Notes under the pieces: model-generated
The model's database searches: none
Seen by the model: the letters and a program-made list of their open reading frames with translations, nothing else
What the model was told of the DNA's origin: nothing
Shown: positions 1 to 51,628 of the stretch, in pieces
Position numbering within the stretch: position 1 is the stretch's first letter
How the letters are laid out: the number at the start of each line of letters is the position of its first letter
Assembly: GCA_965203175.1 (NCBI GenBank)
Contig: OZ241867.1
Coordinates: 352,001 to 416,000, forward strand
DNA: 64,000 nucleotides
Source of the DNA: Candidatus Latescibacterota bacterium
GTDB lineage: Bacteria > Latescibacterota > UBA2968 > UBA8231
Direction of reading: 5' to 3'
Made by a program: the position numbers and the translations under genes

Positions 1-897
1 TATAATTGAATAGCGCGGAAGCGCCGCTCGCTGCGCTTCGATTTCCTCCTGCACGCGGCGCGCTAGGGCCTCGCAATCCGTGATACACACGGCCGCCACC
101 CCCCAGCCGTGCTCGGCTTGCGAGAGCAAATCCGCAGCTACCAAGCGCGGATCGGCCGCCGCGTCGGCGAGCACCACAATTTCCGACGGGCCGGGCAACA
201 GCGCGATGCCCACCGCGCCGAAGACCTGCCGCTGCGCGGCCACCGTATAGGGAGAACCCGGGCCGACGATCTTGTGCACCGGCGGAATGCTCTCCGTGCC
301 ATACGCGAGCGCAGCCACGGCCTGTGCCCCTCCTACGGCGTACACCTCGTCAATGCCCAACAAACACGCGGCCGCCGCAATCGTCGGATGCACCTTGCCG
401 GTTTCCACCGGCGGCGAAACCACGCAGAGCTGGTCCACGCCAGCCACCTGCGCGGGCACGGCCGTCATCAGCAGGCTCGAAAACAGCGGCACCTCGCCAG
501 CCGGCACGCACAAGCCCACCCGCTCGATGGGCGTGATTTTCTTGCCCAGCATCACCCCGTCGCCGTCTTCGACAAACCACGAGTTGAGTTTTTGCCGCTC
601 GTGGAAGGCGCGGATATTAGCTACCGCCGCCTCCATGGAAGCGCGCAGGCTCGGGTCCAGCGCAGCTTCTGCCTCGGCGAGCACGGACGCTGGCACCCGC
701 AACTGCTCAGGGCACACCTCCACGCCATCGAACCGCTGCGTTAGCGCGCACAGCGCGGCATCGCCTTCTTTCCGCACCTGCCGCAGAATGTCTCGCACCG
801 CGTCCTCGACCTTGGGGTCGGATTCGGGGCGGCGTGCAAACAGGGCGGCGAGCGGCTCGGCCAGCGGCTCGGAGGGATAGGACGCAATGGGCACCAT
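1..897 (-). CDS. hisD: Histidinol dehydrogenase (3' part runs off the window)
   Basis: Hand translation, absent from the ORF track: MVPIASYPS...AVANIRAFHERQ...PIERVGLCVPAG...VGGAQAVAALAYGTESI...KIVGPGS...LPGPSEIVVLAD...AADLLSQAEH, typical HisD motifs. Confidence 0.93.
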   Translation of the reverse strand, partial: MVPIASYPSEPLAEPLAALFARRPESDPKVEDAVRDILRQVRKEGDAALCALTQRFDGVEVCPEQLRVPASVLAEAEAALDPSLRASMEAAVANIRAFHERQKLNSWFVEDGDGVMLGKKITPIERVGLCVPAGEVPLFSSLLMTAVPAQVAGVDQLCVVSPPVETGKVHPTIAAAACLLGIDEVYAVGGAQAVAALAYGTESIPPVHKIVGPGSPYTVAAQRQVFGAVGIALLPGPSEIVVLADAAADPRLVAADLLSQAEHGWGVAAVCITDCEALARRVQEEIEAQRAALPRYSII

Positions 898-902
898 CCG
901 TT

Positions 903-1170
903 CAGTGCTATCGGGGTGTGATGTGTTGAGTCATCGTGAGTTCGAGCCGTTTTAGTCCCTGTGAGGAAGGGTGTCTTATACCTAGGCTGACCACTCGACC
1001 TGCTATTCGTAACGCATCCGGCAGGTATTCGGGCGCAACAAGCAAGCAAGGAAAAACATGAAACCAAGTCAACATAAATCGCCTTTCTCTCAGGGAGCAC
1101 AAGGCCCCGTCGAGAAAGCCGCTCCTATCCCCCCGAACGGCTAAAGCCGTCAGTCCCACGGAGATTATTG
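903..1170 (-). mobile_element. Truncated non-autonomous IS200/IS605-type element: left end plus 5' half of a structured RNA
   Basis: 1068-1170 aligns to the tnpB element left end at 48316-48420 (hairpin GACTGACGGCTTTAGCCGTT on minus) and is preceded by CCAT on minus; interior is homologous to the cargo of 3966-4445 and 10746-11282. Confidence 0.75.
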
Positions 1171-10490: not shown

Positions 10491-11816
10491 GTGCGACCTT
10501 AAAGTCGCACAATTTGAGTGGGGGCAACCCCTCGACCAGTGTGCAGGTCAATCATCAGTCCTCCCTGCGTTCGGAGTAATCTGGAGGTTGGAAGCAGAGG
10601 ATGAAAAGCCTAATAGCGCGGCGAGCCATCAGCCAAACTTGGGCAAGATGAAGATAGGACGGGAGAACGAGAGTGAATCTGTGGTAGAGGCGTCGTAAAG
10701 GTTGACCGCTGAAAACGATGGATGATACAGCGGATGGGTCCACATGTCAGCCACCGACGGCTAAAGCGGTCGGCTTGTCCCTGCCTTTTCCCCCATCCTC
10801 CTAACACGAGCACCGTGCGAATAGGAGAATCACGGATGCGGCTTAACATCGCAGGATGCGACATTGAGCTACTCAGCGGAACTATATGCCTGCTGACACC
10901 AAGCAGCCACTTGGGGGGCGAGACCCCGAGGCATTCGGAACGCACTGTCGGGCTGGCTGAACTACCAGTGCGCACTCGATCCACGCATACAGTGCTATCG
11001 ACGTGTAGTGCCAACAGCCATCCTGAGCGCATGCCCCGAAGGGCTAAACAGTTTTACCCCTCTGGAGGGTGCCCTATCGCCTAAGCTGTTGGCTCGGGCT
11101 CCTATGTGGCCACAATACTGTGGCCAGACTGCTCGTACGCATCCGGGAGCCATTCGGGCGCACACCTAATATAAGCCTCTGCTCGGGGACGCCACAACGC
11201 CTGGTGCGTTGCTCCGCCTGTCGCAGAGACTACACCTTTTTCCTCCCCCGCCTAAAGACGGGGGTCTCCAAAGGAGATTTTTATGAAAATGGCTTCCATC
11301 ATGGCCATAGTGAACTGGGATCCAGAAGTATCTCAGCGCGCACACTATTGACCCCGGCGCAAAGCAGCCTCCCACCCCTATTGCATCTCAGTTGTGCGGA
11401 AAAGGGCAACCCCGTTAGAGGTCTCAACCTGAGTAACCCGACTGCAAAGAAGGGCCAAACCCTCAGCGGGCACAGGATGCTCCAAAAAGCCAATGCCAGC
11501 CGTGGAAACACACGGGGAATACATAACCCGCTGGATATGCTGACGTGGAGCAGGTGAGTTGACCTTGAGAAGGATAGCAAAAGACCTAAATCGGATGTGG
11601 ATGCGCAGGGCCTTTAGGCGAGCAGAGCATCGGAGGGAAACCAAGGTCTGGAGGCGGTCCGACAAGGAAGCGGGAGCAGTAGAGTCTCTGGAAAGCATGA
11701 TACTCGCTATACATACTCCAGCCCAACTTGCTTGAGCCGTGTGCGTTGAAAGGCGCACGCACGGTTCTGAGGTTCTGAGGGGAGGGGGAGGCAGTGAGGT
11801 CTCCTCCTTACCCGAC
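10491..11816 (+). mobile_element. ORF-less group II intron (IIB-like), interrupted by an IS605-ended element
   Basis: 5' GTGCGACCTTAAAGTCG; domain V GAGCCGTGTGCGTTGAAAGGCGCACGCACGGTTC; domain VI ending CCTTACCCGAC; EBS1 CAGAAG (11323-11328, in a stem-loop) pairs with exon CTTCTG (10485-10490). Confidence 0.9.
10746..11282 (-). mobile_element. Complete 537-bp non-autonomous IS200/IS605-type element with structured non-coding cargo
   Basis: On minus: TCAT|AAAAATCTCC left end; right end CAGGGACAAGCCGACCGCTTTAGCCGTCGGTGGCTGAC| like the tnpB elements; no TSD and no credible ORF. Confidence 0.88.
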
Positions 11817-20111: not shown

Positions 20112-20211
20112 GGCGCGAAGGCACTCGTCAGTAAACTGACAGTTTCGGCCTAACTCCGTATCGGCGGGGTAGGTCAGGGACAAGCCGTCTTCTTTAGGGG
20201 ACGGTGGTTGA
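20112..20211 (+). mobile_element. Orphan right end (omegaRNA-like scaffold) of a tnpB element
   Basis: GCACTCGTCA..AGTTTCGGCCTA..GGCGGGGT..CAGGGACAAGC..GGTGGTTGA aligns to 49512-49610. Confidence 0.8.
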
Positions 20212-42260: not shown

Positions 42261-43139
42261 ATGGAAATCCAACCCCAACCGCAGATATTCGACGTCGATG
42301 AGCAAAACTTTGAAGAGCTGGTCCTCCAAGGCTCGCAGGAACGCGTCATCGTCGTCGATTTTTGGGCCCCTTGGTGCGGCCCTTGCAAGACCTTAGGTCC
42401 GATCCTCGAAGACGTCGTCGCGGCGCTCGGCCCCGGCGTGGCCCTAGCCAAGGTCAACGTCGATGAAAACCAGCGGCTCGCCATGGCCTTTCGGGTCCAA
42501 GGCATCCCCGCGGTCAAAATCGTCAAGAACGGCCAGCTAGCCCAGGAATTCACCGGCGCGCTGCCCAGAGAGCAAATCGAAGCCATTCTCCGTCCTTTGG
42601 TCGCCGATGCCCCCATCCCCGAAGAAGCCCAAGTGATTGACCAAGCTGACGACTTAGCGGCTACCGGCGATCTCGACGAGGCCGCGCGCCAGTACGAGCA
42701 GGCGCTTGAGGAAAATCCCACCGACGGCCCCGCCCTCCTCGGCCTGGCGAAGATCCACCTGCAGCAGGGCCGCTTTGAGACCGTGCAAGAGCTGGTCAAT
42801 CTCGTCGAATCGGACGCCCCCGAATACCCACAGGCCCAAGCACTGCTCACCCAGATCGAGTTTGCCCACCAGTGCCAGCAGGCTGGGGGACGCGCCGCCT
42901 GCGCCCAGCGAGTACTCAGTCAGCCAGACGACCAAGAAGCCCGCTACTTACTCGCCTGTTGTGCAGCCTCCGAGAGTGACTACGAAACCGCGTTGCAGGA
43001 ATGGCTACACATCGTGGGGAAAAAAGCGAACGGCGACCAAGCCGCCAAGGACGCCATGGTCGCCGTCTTCCACCTACTCGGCCGCGACAATCCGCTGGTG
43101 GCCGACTACCAGCGCAAACTCTACCAAGCCCTGTACTGA
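42261..43139 (+). CDS. Thioredoxin-TPR co-chaperone (YbbN/CnoX-like)
   Basis: VDFWAPWCGPCK then TPR helices ending YQRKLYQALY. Confidence 0.9.
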   Translation: MEIQPQPQIFDVDEQNFEELVLQGSQERVIVVDFWAPWCGPCKTLGPILEDVVAALGPGVALAKVNVDENQRLAMAFRVQGIPAVKIVKNGQLAQEFTGALPREQIEAILRPLVADAPIPEEAQVIDQADDLAATGDLDEAARQYEQALEENPTDGPALLGLAKIHLQQGRFETVQELVNLVESDAPEYPQAQALLTQIEFAHQCQQAGGRAACAQRVLSQPDDQEARYLLACCAASESDYETALQEWLHIVGKKANGDQAAKDAMVAVFHLLGRDNPLVADYQRKLYQALY

Positions 43140-43146
43140 GCACGCC

Positions 43147-44202
43147 GTGCAGATTACCCGCCTCGAACGCACCGTCTGTTGCGTGCCCTTCCTCCCGGGC
43201 ATCCTACCCCCGCCCGAGTACGACGAGCCCTCGCCCGGCTATCCCGAGCCGCTCTCGGCCCGACGCCAAGACATCCTCAGGATCCACACCGACCAAGGAC
43301 TGACCGGCCTCGGCATGAGCGGACCGTACTACGGCGACCGCACAGAACAACCACCCGACCTGATCGGCAAAGACCCCAACACCTTTGAGCCACGCGCCTT
43401 GCGCGGCGGTGGCTGGGACATCGCCCTCCTCGATCTGATCGGCAAAATGATCGGCTGGCCGCTGTGCCGCATTTTCGGCGGCAAGCTGCAGGACAAGGTG
43501 CTGGTTGACTACTGGATCAGTCGGATGAGCGCCGCGGATACCGCCCGCGCGGCCCAACGCGCCGCCGAGCTGGGTTTCCACGGCATCAAGATGAAGTGCA
43601 AGTGGGAAGATGCCAACATGGAGGACCGAGTCCGCGCCGCCCTCGAAGTCGCGCCGCACCTGCGAGTAGTCCTAGACCCCAACGAGCGCTTCTACAATCT
43701 CGAAAACGCCCTCGACCTAGCCCGCCGCCTCGACGGACTCGACGTGGTCTTTGAAGATCCCTTCCCCAAAACCGATCTCAACGAATATCGCCGCCTCAAG
43801 GAAGAGACCAGCGTCCTCGTCGCCCCGCACTTCCAAAACCCCCGCCAGATCATCGACGCAGTGCATCTCGAAGCGGTTGACGCCTTCAACGTCGCGCCCT
43901 CGGATTGGGATTTTCTCGACATGGCGCGCATCGCCGCAAGCGCGGACATCCCCGTGTGGCAAGCCTCCAATGTCGATCTGGGGATTTTCGACGCCTTCCG
44001 CCTCCACGCCTCGGCCGCCGCGCCCAACTGCACCTTTGGCTCAGACCTCTGCGGCAACTTCGCGCACGAGCACAGCCTGCTCAAAGAGCCACTGGTCCAA
44101 GACGGCTACGCCATCGTGCCCACCGGCCCAGGTTTGGGCGTGGAATTGGACGAGAACGCCGTCGCCCGCTACGCAGTCTCCGCGCAGCAGTGGCCCGGCT
44201 AG
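43147..44202 (+). CDS. Mandelate racemase/muconate lactonizing enzyme family protein
   Basis: IALLDLIGK..PL..FGG, KMK, DPN, EDP, VPTGPGLGVELD; GTG start after upstream stop. Confidence 0.9.
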   Translation: MQITRLERTVCCVPFLPGILPPPEYDEPSPGYPEPLSARRQDILRIHTDQGLTGLGMSGPYYGDRTEQPPDLIGKDPNTFEPRALRGGGWDIALLDLIGKMIGWPLCRIFGGKLQDKVLVDYWISRMSAADTARAAQRAAELGFHGIKMKCKWEDANMEDRVRAALEVAPHLRVVLDPNERFYNLENALDLARRLDGLDVVFEDPFPKTDLNEYRRLKEETSVLVAPHFQNPRQIIDAVHLEAVDAFNVAPSDWDFLDMARIAASADIPVWQASNVDLGIFDAFRLHASAAAPNCTFGSDLCGNFAHEHSLLKEPLVQDGYAIVPTGPGLGVELDENAVARYAVSAQQWPG

Positions 44203-44240
44203 GCCGGGATCAGCGCCTCTGCGCCAAAGATCATCGGATA
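43945..44240 (+). repeat. 296-bp direct repeat, copy 1
   Basis: Matches 48083-48315 plus 49611-49673. Confidence 0.92.
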
Positions 44241-44505
44241 ATAAACCTTTAATATCAGAGAATTGGGAGCAAGGAACTCATTCGGCAGGGCTACTATGCG
44301 CTTGATACGTTTGACAGGTTTCAGTATGTGAAGTAAGGTATCAATCTCTTCGCATTCTCCTGACTAATTGCTAAAAAATGCAGAAGATGAAGGGGTGCGA
44401 AAAAATAATCAGGCAAATCTCGCTCCGGTACCCTTAGCCTAGATATGTTTCGTTTCTGCTAGCGTAAAGGAGATAAGACAGATTTGTCGTTTAATAAAAT
44501 TCTTA

Positions 44506-45436
44506 GAAGCCGTCTGAAAACTATATTTTTCCCTTGATCCGTTTGAGTATCAAGTGGATCATGGCAATCTGAATCAAGGCTTCACTATGGCGGGTCAACA
44601 CCTCATAATATCTCGCATGACGACGAAAATTCATCAACCACGCAAACGTACGCTCAACGACCCAACGCCGTTTGAGTACGGTAAATCCACCGCCTTGTTT
44701 GGCGACGACTTCCAAGTCAATCTTGTGCGTCTTTTTTAGGTCGGCTACCCACGTTCGGATGGCCTGACCTTGGTAGCCGCCATCGACCCACAGTTTGCGC
44801 AAGCGGGGTACGTCGGGGGTACTATAGCGGGTCAACACCTGCTTGAGGCCGTCGCGATCATCGACATCGGCGGCGGTAACCACCACCTGTCTAAGCAAGC
44901 CCGAGGTATCAACCAACAGATGCCGTTTGCGGCCTTGAATCTTTTTACCGGCGTCATATCCGGTTGTTTTACCTTGGGTTGCCGTCTTAATCGTCTGACT
45001 GTCGATACAGCCTGCCGACGGCTGAGATACCCGGCCTTGTCGGCGACGCTCTCGTTGGGTGAGTTGATCCAACACCCGGGGCCAGACCCCTTGCAGACTC
45101 CAGCGACGAAAGGAATCATACACGGTTTTCCACGGCCCAAAACAACAAGGCAACAAAGCCCAAGGACACCCAGTCTTAGTCAAATACAAAAGGCCGTTGA
45201 CGATCTGGCGTCGATCCCGCGGGGGCCGACCCGGACCGTTCGGCCACCACCGCGAAGGCGGCAGCAACGGTTGAATCTGCTGCCATTGCGCATCGGTTAC
45301 ATCGGTAGCATATTGGCCATCAGGCGTACTCATCATGCAAGCCTTTCTATTCAGACTTTTGTAGCGAAACCTGAATATGGCCCGATGAGTACGCCGTTTC
45401 AAATGCAGACCACATCAAGGGTTTTCAGACGGCTTC
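44506..45436 (-). mobile_element. IS5-family (IS1031-like) insertion sequence
   Basis: 15-bp TIR GAAGCCGTCTGAAAA, 3-bp TTA target duplication. Confidence 0.92.
44521..45336 (-). CDS. IS5-family transposase
   Basis: YATDVTDAQW, TGCPW, IDSQTIK, GYDAGKKIQGRKRH, WVDGGY, RWVVERTFAW. Confidence 0.93.
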   Translation of the reverse strand: MMSTPDGQYATDVTDAQWQQIQPLLPPSRWWPNGPGRPPRDRRQIVNGLLYLTKTGCPWALLPCCFGPWKTVYDSFRRWSLQGVWPRVLDQLTQRERRRQGRVSQPSAGCIDSQTIKTATQGKTTGYDAGKKIQGRKRHLLVDTSGLLRQVVVTAADVDDRDGLKQVLTRYSTPDVPRLRKLWVDGGYQGQAIRTWVADLKKTHKIDLEVVAKQGGGFTVLKRRWVVERTFAWLMNFRRHARYYEVLTRHSEALIQIAMIHLILKRIKGKI

Positions 45437-45468
45437 TTATGCGGATACGTAACGAAACGGAATCGAGT

Positions 45469-48072
45469 ATGAAACACCAACTCCTCTTCGAAAAAATCGA
45501 TAATCGTATTGTTCGCGACAAGGAGGAGGGCGACTACGCCTATTTTCACGCGTTGACTTTGAAATTGGAGTACGTCACAAAACTCGTGACCGCGGGTGTA
45601 GTTGCTTGCATCGGTGATGACGCGGACCGGAATAGGTACTCACTTGAGCACAAACTTGTCCGCGCCAATTCAGTCGGCGACTGGGTAGCAAACCTCAACA
45701 GTGCGCTGGTAGGACCACCAGCAGGCTCCCTAGATTCCAACGCACGCAACCTAGCTCGTGATTTGACGGAGCGGGTCAATTCTACAGATTGGCGGTATCA
45801 TGCTGTAATCGCTTTGAACCAAGCCGCAGAAGAGATCGGCGCTGTGGAGAAGCTGGGCACAAAAGTTGCGCTTCGCCAGTTTTTCGATATCGGGACAAGG
45901 CTCCGGAATCGGAGTCGAGGTCATGGTGCTCCTACCAACGAACAATGCAGTAAGGCTTGTCCGTTCCTCGACAAGGCCCTGAAGGAGGTCGTGTATAAAC
46001 TCAAACTATTTCAGATTCCGTGGGTATATTTGCACCGGAATCTAAGTGGGAAGTACCGAGTATCTCCGCTTTGGGGTGATGCTTCGTGTTTCGAGTATCT
46101 CAAGAGCGAGCGCAATGTGCGCCTTCCTGATAATGGAGTTTTTCTTTATCTCGATCTCCCAGTGTATGTTCCCTTGGTCTTTAGCGATACCGATGTGCTC
46201 GATATCTCTCTTCCCAATGGAAACCACCGTGGTAATACCTTTGAGGCCCTTTCGTATGTTACTAATCAGACAAAGAACGTAGACGGATCGACATGGTCAG
46301 ACCCACCAGCGCGCCTTCCTCGTAGCGAGACCGAGGGGGATACTATACTTGAACCACTGGGCAATACCTTTGCCAATTTGCCTCCCAAACCTAGCGGCTA
46401 CATTCTGCGGCGTGATCTCGAAAAGCGCCTAAAGGAAGAACTTCTGAAGACTGATAGGCATCCCATAGTTTCACTTACTGGTCCGGGGGGGATCGGCAAG
46501 ACGACCATCGCCATCGCGTCAATCGAAGATATCGCTCAACTCAAGCCAGTGCCTTATCAAGTGGTTTTGTGGATCAGTGCTCGAGATATTGACTTGCTTG
46601 AGTCAGGTCCGAAGTCTGTTTCACCTCGAGTGATTACCCAGCAGGACATCTCGCGCGCCGCCGTTGAATTACTTGAACCCGCGGATAAGTCATCGAACGA
46701 TTTTGACCCAGATACCTATTTCCAGAAATGTCTTGCTGAAGGTGCGGCTGGCACGACACTATTTGTGCTTGACAATTTTGAGACAGTGAAGAGCCCGGCG
46801 GATGTCTTCAGTTGGATTGACACCTATGTCAGGCCCCCAAACAAAGTCCTAATTACAACGAGATTTCGTGACTTCGCTGGCGATTACCCAATCGAGATTG
46901 GGGGTATGACAGATGAAGAAGCCAGTAGTCTTATCGACCAACATGCAAGATTCCTTAAAATTGGATCTCTACTGAATCCAACTTACAAAAGTGAGCTGAT
47001 TCGCGAATCTGACGGCCATCCTTATGTCATGAAAGTCCTCTTAGGGCAGGTGGTAAAAGAGCAGCGTGCTGTCAAACCGCAACGTATTATGGCCAGTGCG
47101 GATCACCTGCTGAAGGCTCTATTTGAGAGGACATACGGTGCTCTTAGCCCGGCAGGACAGCGGGTTTTTTTGCTGCTTTGTAGTTGGAGGGTATTTGTCC
47201 CCGAGGTCGCTGTAGAGGCTGTGTCAATCCGTCCTAGGAGTGAGCGATTTGGGGTTACAGAAGCTCTGGAAGAACTACGTCGGTTTTCGCTTGTTGAGCA
47301 GATTGTTTCAAAAAAAGAAGATGAACTCTTTGTGGGAGTGCCGCTGGCGGCGGCAATGTACGGACAACAGAAACTGGAGACCAGTCCCTTTAAGAGCGTG
47401 GTCGGAGAAGATCGAAAGCTTCTGATGGAGTTCGGGGCTGGTAAGCGAGAGGATGTCCATAGGGGTGTCCTCCCACGAATCGAGCGCCTCGTTCAAACTG
47501 TGGCGGTACGAGCAAGTGCTAGCCCGACAACGTTAGAGGAGAACCTACCAGTATTGGAATACCTAGCGGCAAGAGTGCCAAAGGCATATCTACAACTCGC
47601 CGATTTGGTATTGGAAGCCAGTGAGTTGGCTGACTCCACAGAGCGTGCAAAAGGGTACATTCGGAGTTTCTTGGAGAACGCGGACGCTCCTGATCGACAG
47701 GAGGCATGGCTGAAGCTTGCAGACCTGTGTCAGGTGAGTCAGGACCTAGTAGGTGAAATTCACGCGCTCAGTGAGGCCGCGCTACTACCGACAACAGATC
47801 AGGAAGATCTCGGGCGGTTTGCGAATCGTCTAAACAATCGTATGCGAGACTTCAGAGGTGAACCAGAAGAAGTGCGGGGATTTCTTGAGCTGGTCATAAC
47901 GGCGATGGAAAGGCGTTTGAAAGATCTATCAGCCACGAATTGCTCTAGACTAGCTTGGCTTCACTTAAACGTTAAGAACCCGCAACGCGCGCTAGATGTG
48001 GCGAAGATTGGAATTAAGCTCGATTCGAGTAACGATCACTGCCAAAACCTGATCCGGATACTAGATACCTGA
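45469..48072 (+). CDS. STAND/NB-ARC ATPase with N-terminal HEPN-like motif and C-terminal TPR-like helices
   Basis: RNRSRGH; Walker A GPGGIGKTT; Walker B LFVLDNFE; LITTR; GHP; lower GC than flanks. The ORF track extension to 44770 is IS5 antisense. Confidence 0.85.
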   Translation: MKHQLLFEKIDNRIVRDKEEGDYAYFHALTLKLEYVTKLVTAGVVACIGDDADRNRYSLEHKLVRANSVGDWVANLNSALVGPPAGSLDSNARNLARDLTERVNSTDWRYHAVIALNQAAEEIGAVEKLGTKVALRQFFDIGTRLRNRSRGHGAPTNEQCSKACPFLDKALKEVVYKLKLFQIPWVYLHRNLSGKYRVSPLWGDASCFEYLKSERNVRLPDNGVFLYLDLPVYVPLVFSDTDVLDISLPNGNHRGNTFEALSYVTNQTKNVDGSTWSDPPARLPRSETEGDTILEPLGNTFANLPPKPSGYILRRDLEKRLKEELLKTDRHPIVSLTGPGGIGKTTIAIASIEDIAQLKPVPYQVVLWISARDIDLLESGPKSVSPRVITQQDISRAAVELLEPADKSSNDFDPDTYFQKCLAEGAAGTTLFVLDNFETVKSPADVFSWIDTYVRPPNKVLITTRFRDFAGDYPIEIGGMTDEEASSLIDQHARFLKIGSLLNPTYKSELIRESDGHPYVMKVLLGQVVKEQRAVKPQRIMASADHLLKALFERTYGALSPAGQRVFLLLCSWRVFVPEVAVEAVSIRPRSERFGVTEALEELRRFSLVEQIVSKKEDELFVGVPLAAAMYGQQKLETSPFKSVVGEDRKLLMEFGAGKREDVHRGVLPRIERLVQTVAVRASASPTTLEENLPVLEYLAARVPKAYLQLADLVLEASELADSTERAKGYIRSFLENADAPDRQEAWLKLADLCQVSQDLVGEIHALSEAALLPTTDQEDLGRFANRLNNRMRDFRGEPEEVRGFLELVITAMERRLKDLSATNCSRLAWLHLNVKNPQRALDVAKIGIKLDSSNDHCQNLIRILDT

Positions 48073-48315
48073 GCTAAGCAATGACATCCCCGTGTGGCAA
48101 GCCTCCAATGTCGATCTGGGAATTTTCGACGCCTTCCGCCTCCACGCCTCGGCCGCCGCGCCCAACTGCACCTTTGGCTCAGACCTCTGCGGCAACTTCG
48201 CGCACGAGCACAGCCTGCTCAAAGAGCCGCTGGTCCAAGACGGCTACGCAATCGTACCCACCGGCCCGGGTTTGGGCGTGGAATTGGACGAGGAGGCCGT
48301 CGCCCGCTATGCCCT

Positions 48316-49610
48316 AAGAAATCACCGTGGGACTGACGGCTTTGCGCCGGTTCAGGGGGATAAGTGCAGCCTGCACGAGGGGGCCGCAGGCTCCCTGAGT
48401 GCAGGCTGATATAGCTTGACACGGTCCTGCCACATGGTCATATGTACTATTGTGAAACGGGTGATACAAATCAAGCTCCTTCCGACAGCGGAGCAGGCGG
48501 ATGCGCTGGAGCAGACGATGCGCCGCTTCAATGCCGCGTGCAACTGGGTAGCCCAAAAGGCTTTTGAGCGCCGTCTGGCCAACAGCTATGCCCTGCATAA
48601 GCTGCACTACTATGCGGTGCGCGAGCGCTTTGACCTTCCTGCTGACATCGCCATCCTAACGTTTGCCCAAGTGGCGGCCTGCTACAAGCGCGATAAGAGC
48701 AAGCACGTATCGTTTCGTCCGCTGGCGTCGATTCCCTATCGCAAAGGCGCGTTCCGCTACAAGAGCCTAACGGCTGTCAACATCAAGACGGCCGATGGCA
48801 ACCGCCACGACATCCCGATGATTATGGGCGACTACCAGGCCGAGCAGTTTGGCCATGTCAAGCTATTTGCCGAGCTGGTGCGTCGCAAGGACGGCAAATG
48901 GTTCCTGATGGCTACCGTCGAACACGACCCCGAGCCGCCGTGCGAGCCCGACGATTTCCTCGGCGTCGATCTCGGGATGGAGAACCTCGTCACGGATTCT
49001 GATGGCACGATCCACCCCGGCGGCGACGTTGAAGCGGTGCGCATCAAATGCCAGATACTCAAACAGACTCTTCAATCGGCCGCCGACAAAGCAGCCAATC
49101 ACAGACGACGTAAGCGTATTCGTAAGAAGCTCAAGCGCACCGCCGAGCGCGAGTCTCGCTTTCGTCGCAATACGAACCATGTCCTCTCCAAGCGTATCGT
49201 TGGGAAGGCCAAAGACACCGGCCGCGGCATCGCTCTTGAAGACCTCAGAGGCATCCGCGACCGGATACGGTTTCGCAAGCCCCAACGTAACCGCATAGGT
49301 AGCTGGGGGTTCGACCAGCTCAGGCAGTTTGTCGCCTACAAGGCCGAACAGGCCGGGGTGATGCTCAAGCTGATTGATCCAGCGTACACCTCTCAGACCT
49401 GTTCGTCCTGTGGACATGTCGAGCGCGGTAATCGCCCCTCTCAATCCCGGTTTTGTTGCAAGCAGTGTGGGCATCAAGCCCATGCCGATTGCAATGCCGC
49501 CCGGAATATCCGGGCAAGGGCTCTCGTCAACGAGCCTATAGTTTCGGCCTATTCCGCCGCGGCGGGGTGAGCCAGGGACAAGCTGACTGCTTTAGCTGTC
49601 AGGGGTTGAC
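48316..49610 (+). mobile_element. IS200/IS605-family tnpB-only element
   Basis: Boundaries fixed by comparison with the uninterrupted repeat; no TSD; right end GGGGTTGAC|. Confidence 0.92.
48452..49570 (+). CDS. tnpB: RNA-guided endonuclease TnpB, close paralog of 1770-2888
   Basis: LGVDLG, ALEDL, HADCNAA intact. Confidence 0.93.
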   Translation: MKRVIQIKLLPTAEQADALEQTMRRFNAACNWVAQKAFERRLANSYALHKLHYYAVRERFDLPADIAILTFAQVAACYKRDKSKHVSFRPLASIPYRKGAFRYKSLTAVNIKTADGNRHDIPMIMGDYQAEQFGHVKLFAELVRRKDGKWFLMATVEHDPEPPCEPDDFLGVDLGMENLVTDSDGTIHPGGDVEAVRIKCQILKQTLQSAADKAANHRRRKRIRKKLKRTAERESRFRRNTNHVLSKRIVGKAKDTGRGIALEDLRGIRDRIRFRKPQRNRIGSWGFDQLRQFVAYKAEQAGVMLKLIDPAYTSQTCSSCGHVERGNRPSQSRFCCKQCGHQAHADCNAARNIRARALVNEPIVSAYSAAAG

Positions 49611-49631
49611 CTCCGCGCAGCAGTGGCCCGG

Positions 49632-50402
49632 CTAGGCCGGGACCAGCGCCTCTGCGCCAAAGATCATCGGATAGCCTTCGCCCGTGCGCACGGAACGCGA
49701 GGCCCCGTCCATATAGGCAATGCTAAAGGCGCGGCGCGACTGACCCGTCGGATTGATCCCCGAGCGGTGCAGCAGCAGATTGTTGAGCAAAATCGCCTCG
49801 CCCGCCTCGGCTTCAAGGTCGATTTCCGCGCCCGGCGGCGCGTATTCGGCTAGCTGCTCTTCTGAAGGAAAGTGCCCTTCGGTGATCACCCCGTGCTTGT
49901 GGCTGCCGGGCACCACCTGCATACAGCCGTTTGCCACCGTCGCCGGATCGATCGCAGTCCACACCGTGGTCGTCGGATTGTAATCCACGCCCCAGCCCAC
50001 GCCCACGTCTTGGTGCCAGGGCAGGATCGTGCCCTTTTCCGCCGGCTTGTTCATAAACATCGCCCGGAAAATCGACACGTCCTCGCCGATATAGCGCCGG
50101 GTGATCTGGCGGAAAAAAGGGTGCTGCATGTAGGCGAGATAGACGGGGTCCTGCTCCAAGCCCATGATCTTGCGGTACTGGAGTGTGGTACCCTTGTGGC
50201 CAGCAGAGACGGTGGGCATCTTCGCGTAGTCGGCGTCCTCCCCGTCGAGCTGAAACTCCATCTCCGGGTAGAGGATCTCGCCGAGCATGATCGCGTCAAT
50301 GCGCTGCTGTAGTTCGGCCAATCCCGCGTAGTCGAGGACCTTGCCGAGCCGCACGTACCCGTGCTCTTCAAAGTGGGCGTGCTGTTCGTCGCTGTATTGC
50401 AT
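49632..50402 (-). CDS. Phytanoyl-CoA dioxygenase (PhyH)-family Fe/2OG oxygenase
   Basis: FEEHGYV, PWHQD, NGCMQVVPGSH, LHRSGIN..RR. Confidence 0.92.
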   Translation of the reverse strand: MQYSDEQHAHFEEHGYVRLGKVLDYAGLAELQQRIDAIMLGEILYPEMEFQLDGEDADYAKMPTVSAGHKGTTLQYRKIMGLEQDPVYLAYMQHPFFRQITRRYIGEDVSIFRAMFMNKPAEKGTILPWHQDVGVGWGVDYNPTTTVWTAIDPATVANGCMQVVPGSHKHGVITEGHFPSEEQLAEYAPPGAEIDLEAEAGEAILLNNLLLHRSGINPTGQSRRAFSIAYMDGASRSVRTGEGYPMIFGAEALVPA

Positions 50403-50479
50403 TAGCTGCTTCCCTCCGTTTCCCCTAGAAATGAGCAATGTTCTGGGACTTATATACATGACTAATCACGTATACCTTT

Positions 50480-51628
50480 CTATGAAGTAGGATCGTCTCT
50501 ACGGACCGATCCTGATGGTATATATCCTCCCTTCATCTCGGCGATAATCCCCGCCGAGTCAGAGGTTAGTCCTCTGTGAAGGATATTGACCGCAGCATTG
50601 ACGTCTCGGTCTAAGACCATACCACAGGCATAACAGTGATACATCCTCTGGTCTAGTCCTATTTTGTCTCGGGGTATGCTACCACACCCTGAGCACTGCT
50701 GCGTCGTATTGCGGGGATCTACTTTGATAACCCACCCACCAGCACTCTCAGCCTTGTAGGTCAGGCATTGCACAAAGAATCCCCATTGTTGCTCCAGTAT
50801 GGATCGGGATAGGTGTCTATTCTTCACCATATTGGGTATCTTCAGGTCTTCTACTATAAACCGGCAGCCGAACTCTTTGAGCAAAGCGCTAGTGAGCTCA
50901 TGTACTTTGCCCTGCTCGCGCTCTGTAACACGCTGCCATGCCTTAGCCAACCACCGCCGCTTCTTCTCCCTGTTGTTCGAGCCCTTCTTTGCCCTCGATA
51001 GGATACGTTGGCGGCGCTTGAGCTCTGTCCTGTCGACGACGTTCTTGGGCATTTTATGACCATTGGACAAAACAGCTCTATCCTTGATGCCTAAGTCGAT
51101 GCCCACAGGAGGACGTATGTCCAGCACGTCCGGCTCGGCGACCTCCATGACAAACTGGAGCTTAACGCGTCTCGGTGTGCGAACGACACGCACCACCTTG
51201 ACTTTGCCATCAGGAAGAGTTTCCCTAAAACGCAGACGACCGATGCCTTTGATAGAGAATGAGTAATACTTGCCCGACGATTTGATCTTCGCAGGCGTAG
51301 GATCCTCAAAGGAGTGGATGCCGGTGCGCCAGCTCTTGAAACGAGGATAACCGCCGCGCCTAAAGAAAGACTGATAAGCACGGTCTAAACGACGAAGGAT
51401 AGAGCGTTGTATCCTAGCAGGAAACCGACTCCATTGTGGCTCTTTACGGCGTTCCGTCAGCTTGGCTTGCTGCTGCAAGTACGTAACAGACCGCTCCTCT
51501 GTCTCCCAAGCCTGCTTGCGCTCAGCCAAGCTCTCATTATACAGCCAGCGAGACTGATTGAGAAAATCAGCCAAGTTAGCATGAGCACCACGGCTTAGGT
51601 AGGCTTTTCTAGTATAGGTGCGTAGCAC
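50480..51628 (-). CDS. tnpB: RNA-guided endonuclease TnpB (second subfamily, intact)
   Basis: GIDLG, IVEDL, DRDVNAA; paralog of 21122-22266. Confidence 0.92.
   Translation of the reverse strand: MLRTYTRKAYLSRGAHANLADFLNQSRWLYNESLAERKQAWETEERSVTYLQQQAKLTERRKEPQWSRFPARIQRSILRRLDRAYQSFFRRGGYPRFKSWRTGIHSFEDPTPAKIKSSGKYYSFSIKGIGRLRFRETLPDGKVKVVRVVRTPRRVKLQFVMEVAEPDVLDIRPPVGIDLGIKDRAVLSNGHKMPKNVVDRTELKRRQRILSRAKKGSNNREKKRRWLAKAWQRVTEREQGKVHELTSALLKEFGCRFIVEDLKIPNMVKNRHLSRSILEQQWGFFVQCLTYKAESAGGWVIKVDPRNTTQQCSGCGSIPRDKIGLDQRMYHCYACGMVLDRDVNAAVNILHRGLTSDSAGIIAEMKGGYIPSGSVRRDDPTS

What the first reader, a model, noticed from the sequence alone, without database searches (positions are those of the whole stretch)
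49500..49645. TnpB guide perfectly matches the host chromosome, but the TAM there is changed
Seen: the flank after the right end (CTCCGCGCAGCAGTGGCCCG, from 49611) is identical over 32 nt to 44178-44209 in the intact racemase gene. The element follows GCCCT, and four related left ends in the window follow YCAT, whereas the intact copy has GCAGT. Differences between the repeats cluster just upstream of this site. RuvC residues are intact. Known: TnpB needs TAM plus guide match. Inference: a natural self-target tolerated by TAM escape; TnpB cutting may even have driven the duplication or island capture.
Basis: partly seen in the sequence, partly recalled or inferred. Interest (0 to 1): 0.7.

Follow-up and report, generated by a model that had tools for sequence, protein, structure and literature searches.

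The report
TnpB guide matches TAM-less duplicate site
A small transposon that carries an RNA-guided nuclease (TnpB) sits in one copy of a duplicated 296-bp stretch, so its guide also matches the other, intact copy, which lacks the short motif the nuclease should need; this fits known TnpB rules and is not a new mechanism.

Summary
A TnpB-only IS200/IS605-type element (48316-49610) splits the right copy of a 296-bp duplication. The duplication flanks a foreign, low-GC 3.8-kb island. The sequence after the element's right end, which would be the omegaRNA guide, is identical over 32 nt to 44178-44209 in the element-free left copy (63 nt with one mismatch).

New evidence from relatives:
- The vacant site reads CCAT followed directly by the guide sequence in 16 of 18 close same-genus genomes.
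- CCAT precedes 10 of 13 elements of this subgroup, and also both tnpA-bearing elements in this genome. CCAT is therefore the family's insertion motif and presumed TAM.
- In this genome the intact copy reads CAGT (Ala-Ile changed to Ala-Val) and the element-bearing copy reads CCCT.

The simplest account of coexistence is that the matching target lacks the TAM. That the TAM was lost because of TnpB cutting is not shown. The AGT allele, plus a linked T 33 nt downstream, also occurs in the closest relative, which has neither the element at this site nor the island.

Nothing supports TnpB cutting as the cause of the duplication or island capture. TnpB activity and omegaRNA expression could not be tested. 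Verdict: an ordinary TnpB element in an instructive natural arrangement, of moderate interest.

The parts
42706..44202 (+). The longest ORF is given; the true start was not determined.
   Evidence: Pfam MR_MLE_C 1.6e-32. All NCBIfam hits are below their cut-offs. Orthologues at 78-95% identity in 23 of 24 same-genus genomes searched.
43945..44240 (+). Copy 1 of the 296-bp duplication: the last 85 codons of the MR/MLE gene plus a remnant of the last 13 codons of the convergent PhyH gene. No IS.
44174..44177 (+). TAM position of the element-free copy. It reads CAGT; 16 of 18 close relatives read CCAT.
44178..44209 (+). Perfect match to the sequence that follows the element's right end (the first 16-20 nt correspond to the presumed guide).
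44241..48082 (.). Low-GC island between the two repeat copies. It holds an IS5-type element (44499-45439; DDE transposase ORF 44521-45402, minus strand) and a STAND/NB-ARC NTPase ORF that ends at 48072 (plus strand).
   Evidence: GC 0.42-0.57 against 0.60-0.65 for the flanks. Pfam hits. Two other IS5-type copies at 94% identity. The STAND part was found in 0 of 30 other genus genomes.
48083..48315 (+). Copy 2 of the duplication, left part: a 3' fragment of the MR/MLE gene. It ends in CCCT (48312-48315), the altered TAM next to the left end.
48316..49610 (+). TnpB-only IS200/IS605-type element, from the left end with its subterminal hairpin to the right end finishing in GGTTGAC.
   Evidence: Boundaries from the alignment of 6 genomic and 28 genus copies and from vacant sites in relatives.
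48452..49570 (+). tnpB, 372 aa from a GTG start, with an intact RuvC D-E-D triad.
   Evidence: Pfam OrfB_IS605 and Cas12f1-like_TNB. NCBIfam guided_TnpB 196 bits against a cut-off of 100. PDB alignments. dN/dS 0.10-0.13 against 11 copies.
49391..49610 (+). Presumed omegaRNA scaffold: the 3' end of tnpB plus the right end.
   Evidence: RNAalifold on 23 copies gave 55 pairs, 15 of them with compensatory changes. The terminal hairpin is intact in this copy. There is no Rfam match and no RNA data.
49611..49673 (+). Copy 2 of the duplication, right part. 49611-49630 is the presumed guide template.
49632..50459 (-). PhyH-family dioxygenase gene, convergent with the MR/MLE gene in the ancestral arrangement.
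   Evidence: Pfam PhyH 4.3e-28. It directly abuts the MR/MLE gene in all 11 relatives inspected.

Best explanation
A TnpB-only IS200/IS605-type element lies in the right-hand copy of a 296-bp duplication. Its omegaRNA guide is templated by the DNA just past its right end. The guide therefore also matches the left-hand, element-free copy, inside the only intact MR/MLE gene.

Elements of this subgroup insert right after CCAT, and by the known IS605 rule TnpB should require that same motif as its TAM. The element-free copy reads CAGT, so TnpB should not cut it. Element and intact gene can then coexist without chromosome breakage and without the element being copied into the gene.

The TAM-less allele is a conservative Ile-to-Val variant that also exists in the closest relative. 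It most likely either predates the element's arrival or came in by allelic recombination. It need not be a new escape mutation.

Shown here: the anatomy, the motif statistics, the state of the vacant site in relatives, and the sharing of the allele. Inferred: that TAM equals the insertion motif for this TnpB, that the guide RNA is made, that the nuclease is active, and that CAGT is not cut.
For: Family and intactness:
- TnpB family assignment and aligned catalytic residues.
- Right ends finish in TTGAC in 26 of 28 copies, then diverge.
- Conserved, covarying RNA structure over the last 220 nt.

Insertion motif:
- CCAT on the left flank of 10 of 13 copies of this subgroup; TCAT for 11 of 15 copies of the other subgroup (the remaining 4 have no readable left end).
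- Both tnpA-bearing elements in this genome have near-identical end hairpins and follow CCAT.

Vacant site in relatives:
- CCAT directly abuts the guide sequence in 16 of 18 close relatives, without target duplication. Seven of the 18 also match the first 16 guide nt perfectly.

The second match:
- Copy 1 reads CAGT.
- It is the only second perfect 20-nt guide match in the genome among six guides tested.

Allele sharing:
- AG at 44175-44176 is shared with G006 and G020a, and T at 44210 with G006 only.
- G006 is the closest of the 10 relatives compared on both flanks (94.6% and 95.1%). It lacks the junction and the island.

Literature, passages read:
Against: - No functional data exist for this TnpB. 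No RNA run was available.
- Another TnpB tolerates weak TAM variants and cuts them slowly without killing the cell (PMC11043419, passages read). CAGT could therefore still allow some cutting.
- The element's own flank reads CCCT, not CCAT. Either the motif mutated after insertion or the specificity is looser than assumed.
- Both copies have lost CCAT, although 16 of 18 relatives keep it. In copy 1 two adjacent TAM bases changed among about 6 derived changes in 296 bp. That is more than a uniform spread of changes predicts (my rough estimate is about 0.005 to 0.09, depending on whether the adjacent pair counts as one event). This leans towards selection on the TAM.
- Sharing with G006 is locally enriched: 3 sites in about 120 nt, against 4 in 2145 nt upstream. 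This points to recombination in just this tract, and its timing relative to the element's arrival is unknown.
Confidence: 0.55

Rival explanations
1. Active escape. After the element entered copy 2, TnpB cut the CCAT-flanked copy 1. Only cells whose copy 1 had lost the TAM survived with an intact MR/MLE gene. The loss came either by mutation or by importing a TAM-less allele from a relative.
For: - The ancestral or majority state is CCAT plus a perfect guide match.
- Two adjacent TAM bases changed while the protein change is conservative: GCC ATC became GCA GTC.
- Copy 1, the functional gene, carries more derived changes than the pseudogene copy (6 against 2-3), and they cluster at 44091-44210 around the target.
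- The known TAM sensitivity of TnpB.
Against: - The AGT state occurs in G006 and G020a, which lack the element at this site.
- It is linked in G006 to the same T at 44210. Both lineages then added private changes, so the allele looks older than the G000-specific island and duplication.
- This is a single locus, so no statistics beyond a rough estimate are possible.
- Nuclease activity is unknown.
Confidence: 0.2
2. Inert fossil. This copy no longer makes active TnpB or omegaRNA, or cannot move, so the second match has no consequence and the TAM states are neutral drift.
For: - The left-flank cleavage motif is mutated (CCCT), which should block TnpA excision. This is an inference from the IS608/ISGst mechanism.
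- The -10 hexamer of the promoter in the left end reads CATATG, where copy B has TATATT. The consensus scan finds 0 promoter-like sites in copy A and one scoring 11 of 12 in copy B.
- There is no close sister copy: dS is 0.85-1.4 to all 11 copies compared. The insertion is therefore old or imported.
Against: - The 372-aa ORF is intact, the catalytic residues are present, and dN/dS is about 0.1.
- The omegaRNA hairpin is intact in this copy.
- Non-canonical -10 hexamers are common among the other copies (read by eye).
- The STAND gene on the same strand upstream could supply read-through transcription.
Confidence: 0.22
3. TnpB cutting created the 296-bp duplication or captured the island.
For: Only proximity: the predicted target lies inside the duplicated stretch.
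Against: - The duplication boundaries (43945 and 44240) do not coincide with the expected cut zone at about 44192-44198.
- The island carries its own IS5-type element and has a foreign composition.
- No junction feature links the island to TnpB or TnpA.
Confidence: 0.03

Closest known systems
IS200/IS605-family TnpB-omegaRNA elements acting as homing nucleases (ISDra2, Karvelis 2021, PMC8612924, listing and abstract start only; G. stearothermophilus ISGst, Meers 2023 preprint 10.1101/2023.03.14.532601, passages read)
   Same: TnpB with a RuvC triad. Subterminal hairpins at both ends. Insertion 3' of a fixed tetranucleotide without target duplication. Guide taken from the right flank. Vacant homologous sites in relatives read TAM plus guide.
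   Different: It is TnpB-only; tnpA is supplied, if at all, by two other elements. The TAM is CCAT or TCAT rather than an AT-rich pentamer. The vacant-type site sits in the same chromosome, as a duplicate with an altered TAM.
Sulfolobus islandicus TnpB7 and its weak-TAM behaviour (Feng 2024, PMC11043419, passages read)
   Same: It shows that TAM variants grade from lethal cutting to tolerated slow cutting. It also shows that the transposon-end motif protects the element's own locus.
   Different: That is an archaeal TnpB with a TTTAA TAM. Nothing comparable has been measured for this element.
Self-targeting CRISPR spacers tolerated through PAM or target mutation (recalled general knowledge, not checked in a call)
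   Same: A guide with a perfect chromosomal match, tolerated because the adjacent motif is missing.
   Different: Here the match arises automatically from duplication of the insertion locus, not from spacer acquisition. Selection for escape is not shown.
Cas12f nucleases (closest solved structures: 8j12, 7wju, 9nzq)
   Same: The best sequence matches in the PDB (E = 1e-30 over the RuvC/TNB half).
   Different: There is no CRISPR array. The element has transposon ends. NCBIfam Cas12f2 scores 136.8 bits, far below its cut-off of 450.

Membership tests
IS200/IS605-family TnpB element | TnpB protein with RuvC D-E-D and a zinc-ribbon/TNB domain | tested here: met
   Pfam PF01385 and PF07282. NCBIfam guided_TnpB 196 bits against a cut-off of 100. 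Motifs aligned to solved chains.
IS200/IS605-family TnpB element | Subterminal hairpins in the left and right ends | tested here: met
   Similar hairpins with a TTT loop at both ends. The right-end hairpin shows compensatory changes in 23 copies.
IS200/IS605-family TnpB element | Insertion 3' of a conserved short motif without target-site duplication | tested here: met
   CCAT or TCAT on the left flank of 21 of 28 copies. The vacant site in relatives is CCAT followed directly by the right-flank sequence.
IS200/IS605-family TnpB element | Y1 transposase TnpA | tested here: not met
   No tnpA lies inside 48316-49610. Two tnpA genes elsewhere in the genome sit in elements with near-identical end hairpins, so mobilisation in trans is plausible. 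TnpB-only derivatives are a recognised form of the family (recalled).
IS200/IS605-family TnpB element | omegaRNA made from the 3' end of tnpB plus the right end, with a flank-derived guide | tested here: inconclusive
   Conserved, covarying structure. No Rfam family matched and no RNA data were available.
IS200/IS605-family TnpB element | TAM-dependent, RNA-guided DNA cleavage | not testable with these tools
   Needs an interference or cleavage assay.
Self-target tolerated by TAM escape | Perfect guide match outside the element's own junction | tested here: met
   44178-44209.
Self-target tolerated by TAM escape | The target lacks the functional TAM | tested here: met
   CAGT against the family motif CCAT. 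That the motif equals the TAM is inferred from the family rule.
Self-target tolerated by TAM escape | TAM loss arose after, and because of, nuclease pressure | tested here: inconclusive
   The majority state is CCAT. However, the AGT allele and the linked T at 44210 are shared with the closest relative, which lacks the element.

The most novel reading that the evidence does not exclude
The MR/MLE 3' end is a recurrent homing site for this TnpB element in the genus. The TAM-less Val alleles (CAGT here and in one G020 haplotype, TAGT in G006) would then be resistance alleles that spread by recombination because they block TnpB cutting and element homing. That would make them a natural counterpart of the resistance alleles seen against engineered gene drives. 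The CCCT beside the resident element would be the matching change that locks that copy in place.
Probability: 0.12. Interest if true: 0.7.

Novelty: new member of a known kind. Interest (0 to 1): 0.35.

Why it matters
TnpB is thought to persist by cutting vacant copies of its own insertion site. Here one chromosome holds both an occupied copy and a vacant-type copy of that site, and the vacant copy is inside a working gene. If this TnpB is active, the locus offers a ready-made natural contrast of three states of one target: CCAT in relatives, CAGT in the intact copy, and the TTGAC transposon end at the element itself. That contrast could be used to measure TAM stringency and to see what self-targeting does in a native host. 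If the TAM-less alleles prove to be selected, it would be direct evidence that hosts evolve resistance to TnpB homing. As it stands, the arrangement is explained by published TnpB rules.

Tried and rejected
- **Rfam** (evalue mode) on 48200-49800 gave no match.
- **Junction in the genus.** A search for the right-end/guide junction with up to 2 mismatches hit only G000 and one G017 site. The G017 site has no BLAST similarity to the element, so it is a chance hit.
- **Junction in metagenomes.** A scan of metagenome contigs for the 19-nt junction gave 14 loci. None has right-end context or a continuing match, so all are chance hits. The element at this site was not found outside G000.
- **RNA evidence.** No RNA holder was listed, so expression could not be examined.
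- **Reads laid.**
  - X1 contigs bridge the copy 1/island junction (44180-44555) and the copy 2/left-end junction (48265-48542) without differences.
  - X2 bridges the left-end junction with 2 other letters.
  - The island/copy 2 junction has only 30 letters on one side in the listed records, so it does not count as bridged. The right-end junction is not bridged.
  - These runs may be the source sample and are not independent support.
  - One X2 contig joins 44177 to 49611 across the 32-nt repeat. I set it aside: it could be an assembler path through a repeat barely longer than the word size, or a co-occurring relative with the ancestral arrangement (X2 shows relative-type letters at 44043-44091).
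- **Donor lineage.** I tried to name a donor for either repeat copy from site patterns. Two histories each need one recombination event and could not be separated. In one, the element-bearing tract was imported into copy 2. In the other, a TAM-less tract was imported into copy 1. G020b, 98% identical over 255 nt upstream, is not especially close within the repeat.
- **Promoter regex** used a greedy spacer and its scores are unreliable. I read the hexamers by eye from its printed sequences.
- **Guide E.** Its 16-nt second match, inside a DNA methylase gene, lies in a different reading frame from the E locus, so paralogy does not explain it. It is left unexplained.
- **Literature.** Two searches listed no paper whose title or abstract start describes a natural chromosomal TnpB self-target tolerated by a TAM change. 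I read only listings and passages of two papers, and supplements are closed, so this is weak evidence that it is not in print.
Full report
**What is there**

The window is G000:C1:352001-416000. At 48316-49610 lies a TnpB-only element of the IS200/IS605 type.
- Its ORF (48452-49570, 372 aa from GTG) hits Pfam OrfB_IS605 and Cas12f1-like_TNB.
- It also hits NCBIfam guided_TnpB at 196 bits, against a cut-off of 100.
- The closest solved structures are Cas12f-like proteins (8j12, E = 1.3e-30). ISDra2 TnpB is more distant (5e-9).
- The motifs GVDLG, ALEDL and HADCNAARNI align with the catalytic motifs of those chains.

**Element boundaries and family**

The genome holds six copies with at least 69.5% amino-acid identity. 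All six right ends finish in GGTTGAC and diverge immediately after it.

Across the genus I examined 28 copies: 25 loci plus three further G000 copies. Sixteen of 31 genomes have a match at E <= 1e-60.
- Twenty-six of the 28 right ends finish in TTGAC. One finishes in TTGAT and one has no recognisable right end.
- In the subgroup that contains this element (at least 77% identity, 13 copies), 10 follow CCAT. The exceptions are this element (CCCT), L033 (CTAT) and L031 (unclear).
- In the other subgroup (15 copies), 11 follow TCAT and 4 have no readable left end. L051 and L056 are the same site in two genomes, so they are not independent.
- Position -5 varies among copies, so the motif is four bases long.

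Two tnpA (Y1) genes exist elsewhere in the genome. Each sits in an element whose left- and right-end hairpins are nearly identical to those here, and each follows CCAT. Mobilisation in trans is therefore plausible.

The last 220 nt of 23 copies fold into a shared structure of 55 pairs, 15 of them with compensatory changes. The terminal hairpin is intact in this copy. Rfam has no matching family.

dN/dS against 11 copies is 0.10-0.13, with dS 0.85-1.4. The protein lineage has been under constraint, and this copy is not a recent intragenomic transposition.

**The second match**

The 32 nt after the right end recur exactly at 44178-44209. The identity runs to 63 nt with one mismatch. This is not an isolated protospacer. 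It is the right part of a 296-bp duplication: 43945-44240 versus 48083-48315 plus 49611-49673, with 11 differences.
- Copy 1 is the 3' end of the only intact MR/MLE gene, plus a 13-codon remnant of the convergent PhyH gene.
- Copy 2 is a gene fragment, split by the element and followed by the intact PhyH gene.
- Between the copies lies a 3842-bp island with GC 0.42-0.57. It carries an IS5-type element (two other copies at 94%) and a STAND/NB-ARC ORF. The STAND part was found in none of the 30 other genus genomes.
- In all 11 relatives inspected over this stretch, the MR/MLE gene directly abuts PhyH.
- Among the six guides of this genome, only this one has a second perfect 20-nt match.

**The motif at the site**

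I aligned 22 of 23 fetched relatives (L027 gave no hit). Of the 18 close ones (at least 90% identity), 16 read CCAT immediately before the guide sequence.
- Seven of the 18 have CCAT plus a perfect match to the first 16 guide nt. Thirteen have CCAT plus at most one mismatch.
- The normal state of this site in the genus is therefore exactly what the published model calls a vacant site or donor joint: TAM abutting the right flank.
- In G000, copy 1 reads CAGT. GCC ATC became GCA GTC, which is Ala-Ile to Ala-Val.
- The occupied copy reads CCCT.
- The codon is naturally variable. It is ATC in 16 relatives, GTC in G006 and one G020 haplotype, and CTC or CTT in four distant species.

**How it most likely works**

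[quoted passage not shown] A target flanked by CAGT should therefore not be cut.

That explains why the element and the intact gene coexist. It also explains why the element has not been copied into copy 1 by break-induced recombination with copy 2 as the template.

This step is an inference. Another TnpB cuts weak TAM variants slowly without killing the cell (Feng 2024, passages read), so some residual activity on CAGT cannot be excluded.

**Was the TAM lost because of TnpB?**

In favour:
- Both copies have lost a motif that 16 of 18 relatives keep.
- In copy 1 two adjacent TAM bases changed.
- Copy 1's derived changes (44091, 44130, 44155, 44175, 44176, 44210) cluster around the target, although it is the functional copy.

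Against:
- AG at 44175-44176 is shared with G006 and G020a, and T at 44210 with G006 only.
- G006 is the closest of the 10 relatives compared on both flanks (94.6% and 95.1%). It is also the most frequent exclusive sharer of G000's minority alleles.
- G006 has no such junction and no island.
- Both lineages added private changes after the shared state arose. The allele therefore looks older than the G000-specific duplication.

Two histories each need one recombination event, and I could not separate them:
- The element-bearing tract was imported into copy 2 from a CCAT-type lineage. This would also explain why the element has no close sister copy in the genome, and why the differences hug the element on both sides.
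- A TAM-less tract was imported into copy 1. This fits the local excess of sharing with G006: 3 sites in about 120 nt, against 4 in 2145 nt upstream.

Only the second history allows selection by TnpB, and it does not require it. I put active escape at about 0.2.

**Other points**
- The CCCT next to the left end should block TnpA excision, by inference from the mechanism.
- This copy's -10 hexamer is CATATG where copy B has TATATT. An inert copy is therefore a real alternative, at about 0.22.
- The duplication boundaries (43945 and 44240) do not match the expected cut zone at about 44192-44198. Nothing links the island to TnpB, so the idea that cutting drove the duplication is unsupported.
- The junction was not found in other genus genomes or in metagenome contigs.

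**Comparison and verdict**

This is a member of the IS200/IS605 TnpB family in its TnpB-only form. All structural features were tested and met, except tnpA in cis. Activity was not testable.

The arrangement works like a self-targeting guide rendered harmless by a missing adjacent motif. Whether it qualifies as an escape remains open. It is a new member of a known kind. Its interest is moderate, mainly as a natural test bed for TAM stringency and for host responses to TnpB homing.

Noticed in passing
G000:C1:5372676-5372691 (outside the window), compared with copy E at G000:C1:316918-318219: The first 16 nt of copy E's guide match perfectly inside a DNA methyltransferase gene. The site is preceded by CGCA, not TCAT. 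The six bases before that equal the bases upstream of copy E's TTTCAT, as if that hexamer were missing. The reading frames differ, so paralogy does not explain it. A chance 16-mer hit among six guides is roughly 0.05 by my estimate. The extra 6 nt are unexplained.
   Followed up: partly
window 10746-11281 (-): A roughly 540-nt element with a family-type left end (after TTCAT) and right end (finishing in GGCTGAC) but no TnpB ORF. It looks like a non-autonomous derivative.
   Followed up: no
window 1068-1170 (-): A solo left end, very similar to that of the element studied. It follows CCCAT and lies just upstream of a histidinol dehydrogenase gene (ORF 1-897, minus strand).
   Followed up: partly
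window 20120-20211 (+): A right-end remnant only, finishing in GGTTGAT. Its flank equals that of a full-length element (one TAA in its tnpB) at the same site in G012 (L037). This is decay of an orthologous insertion down to the omegaRNA 3' part.
   Followed up: no
window 50480-51628 (-): A second, distant TnpB (382 aa, about 32% identity over 218 aa) lies directly beside the PhyH gene. Its left end follows GTCAT at about 51860. The locus is a hot spot for IS605-type insertions.
   Followed up: partly
G000:C1:330595-332300 compared with L033 (G006:C239:52320-53453): The same insertion site (homologous left and right flanks, hence the same guide) holds a tnpA plus distant-tnpB element in G000, but a TnpB-only element of the family studied here in G006. 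The motif reads CCAT in G000 and CTAT in G006. This suggests cargo replacement between elements that share end hairpins, or repeated use of one site.
   Followed up: no
left ends of 25 family copies: The foot of the left-end hairpin reads GGGAC in copies that follow CCAT and GAGAC in copies that follow TCAT. This could be the TnpA DNA-guide base that pairs with the first TAM base. The two states coincide with the two sequence subgroups, so it amounts to about one independent contrast.
   Followed up: no
window 45442-48072 (+): A STAND/NB-ARC NTPase ORF in the low-GC island, unique in the genus. Its upstream end abuts an IS5-type insertion (44499-45439), so its true start is unclear. It may be a defence-type gene.
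   Followed up: partly
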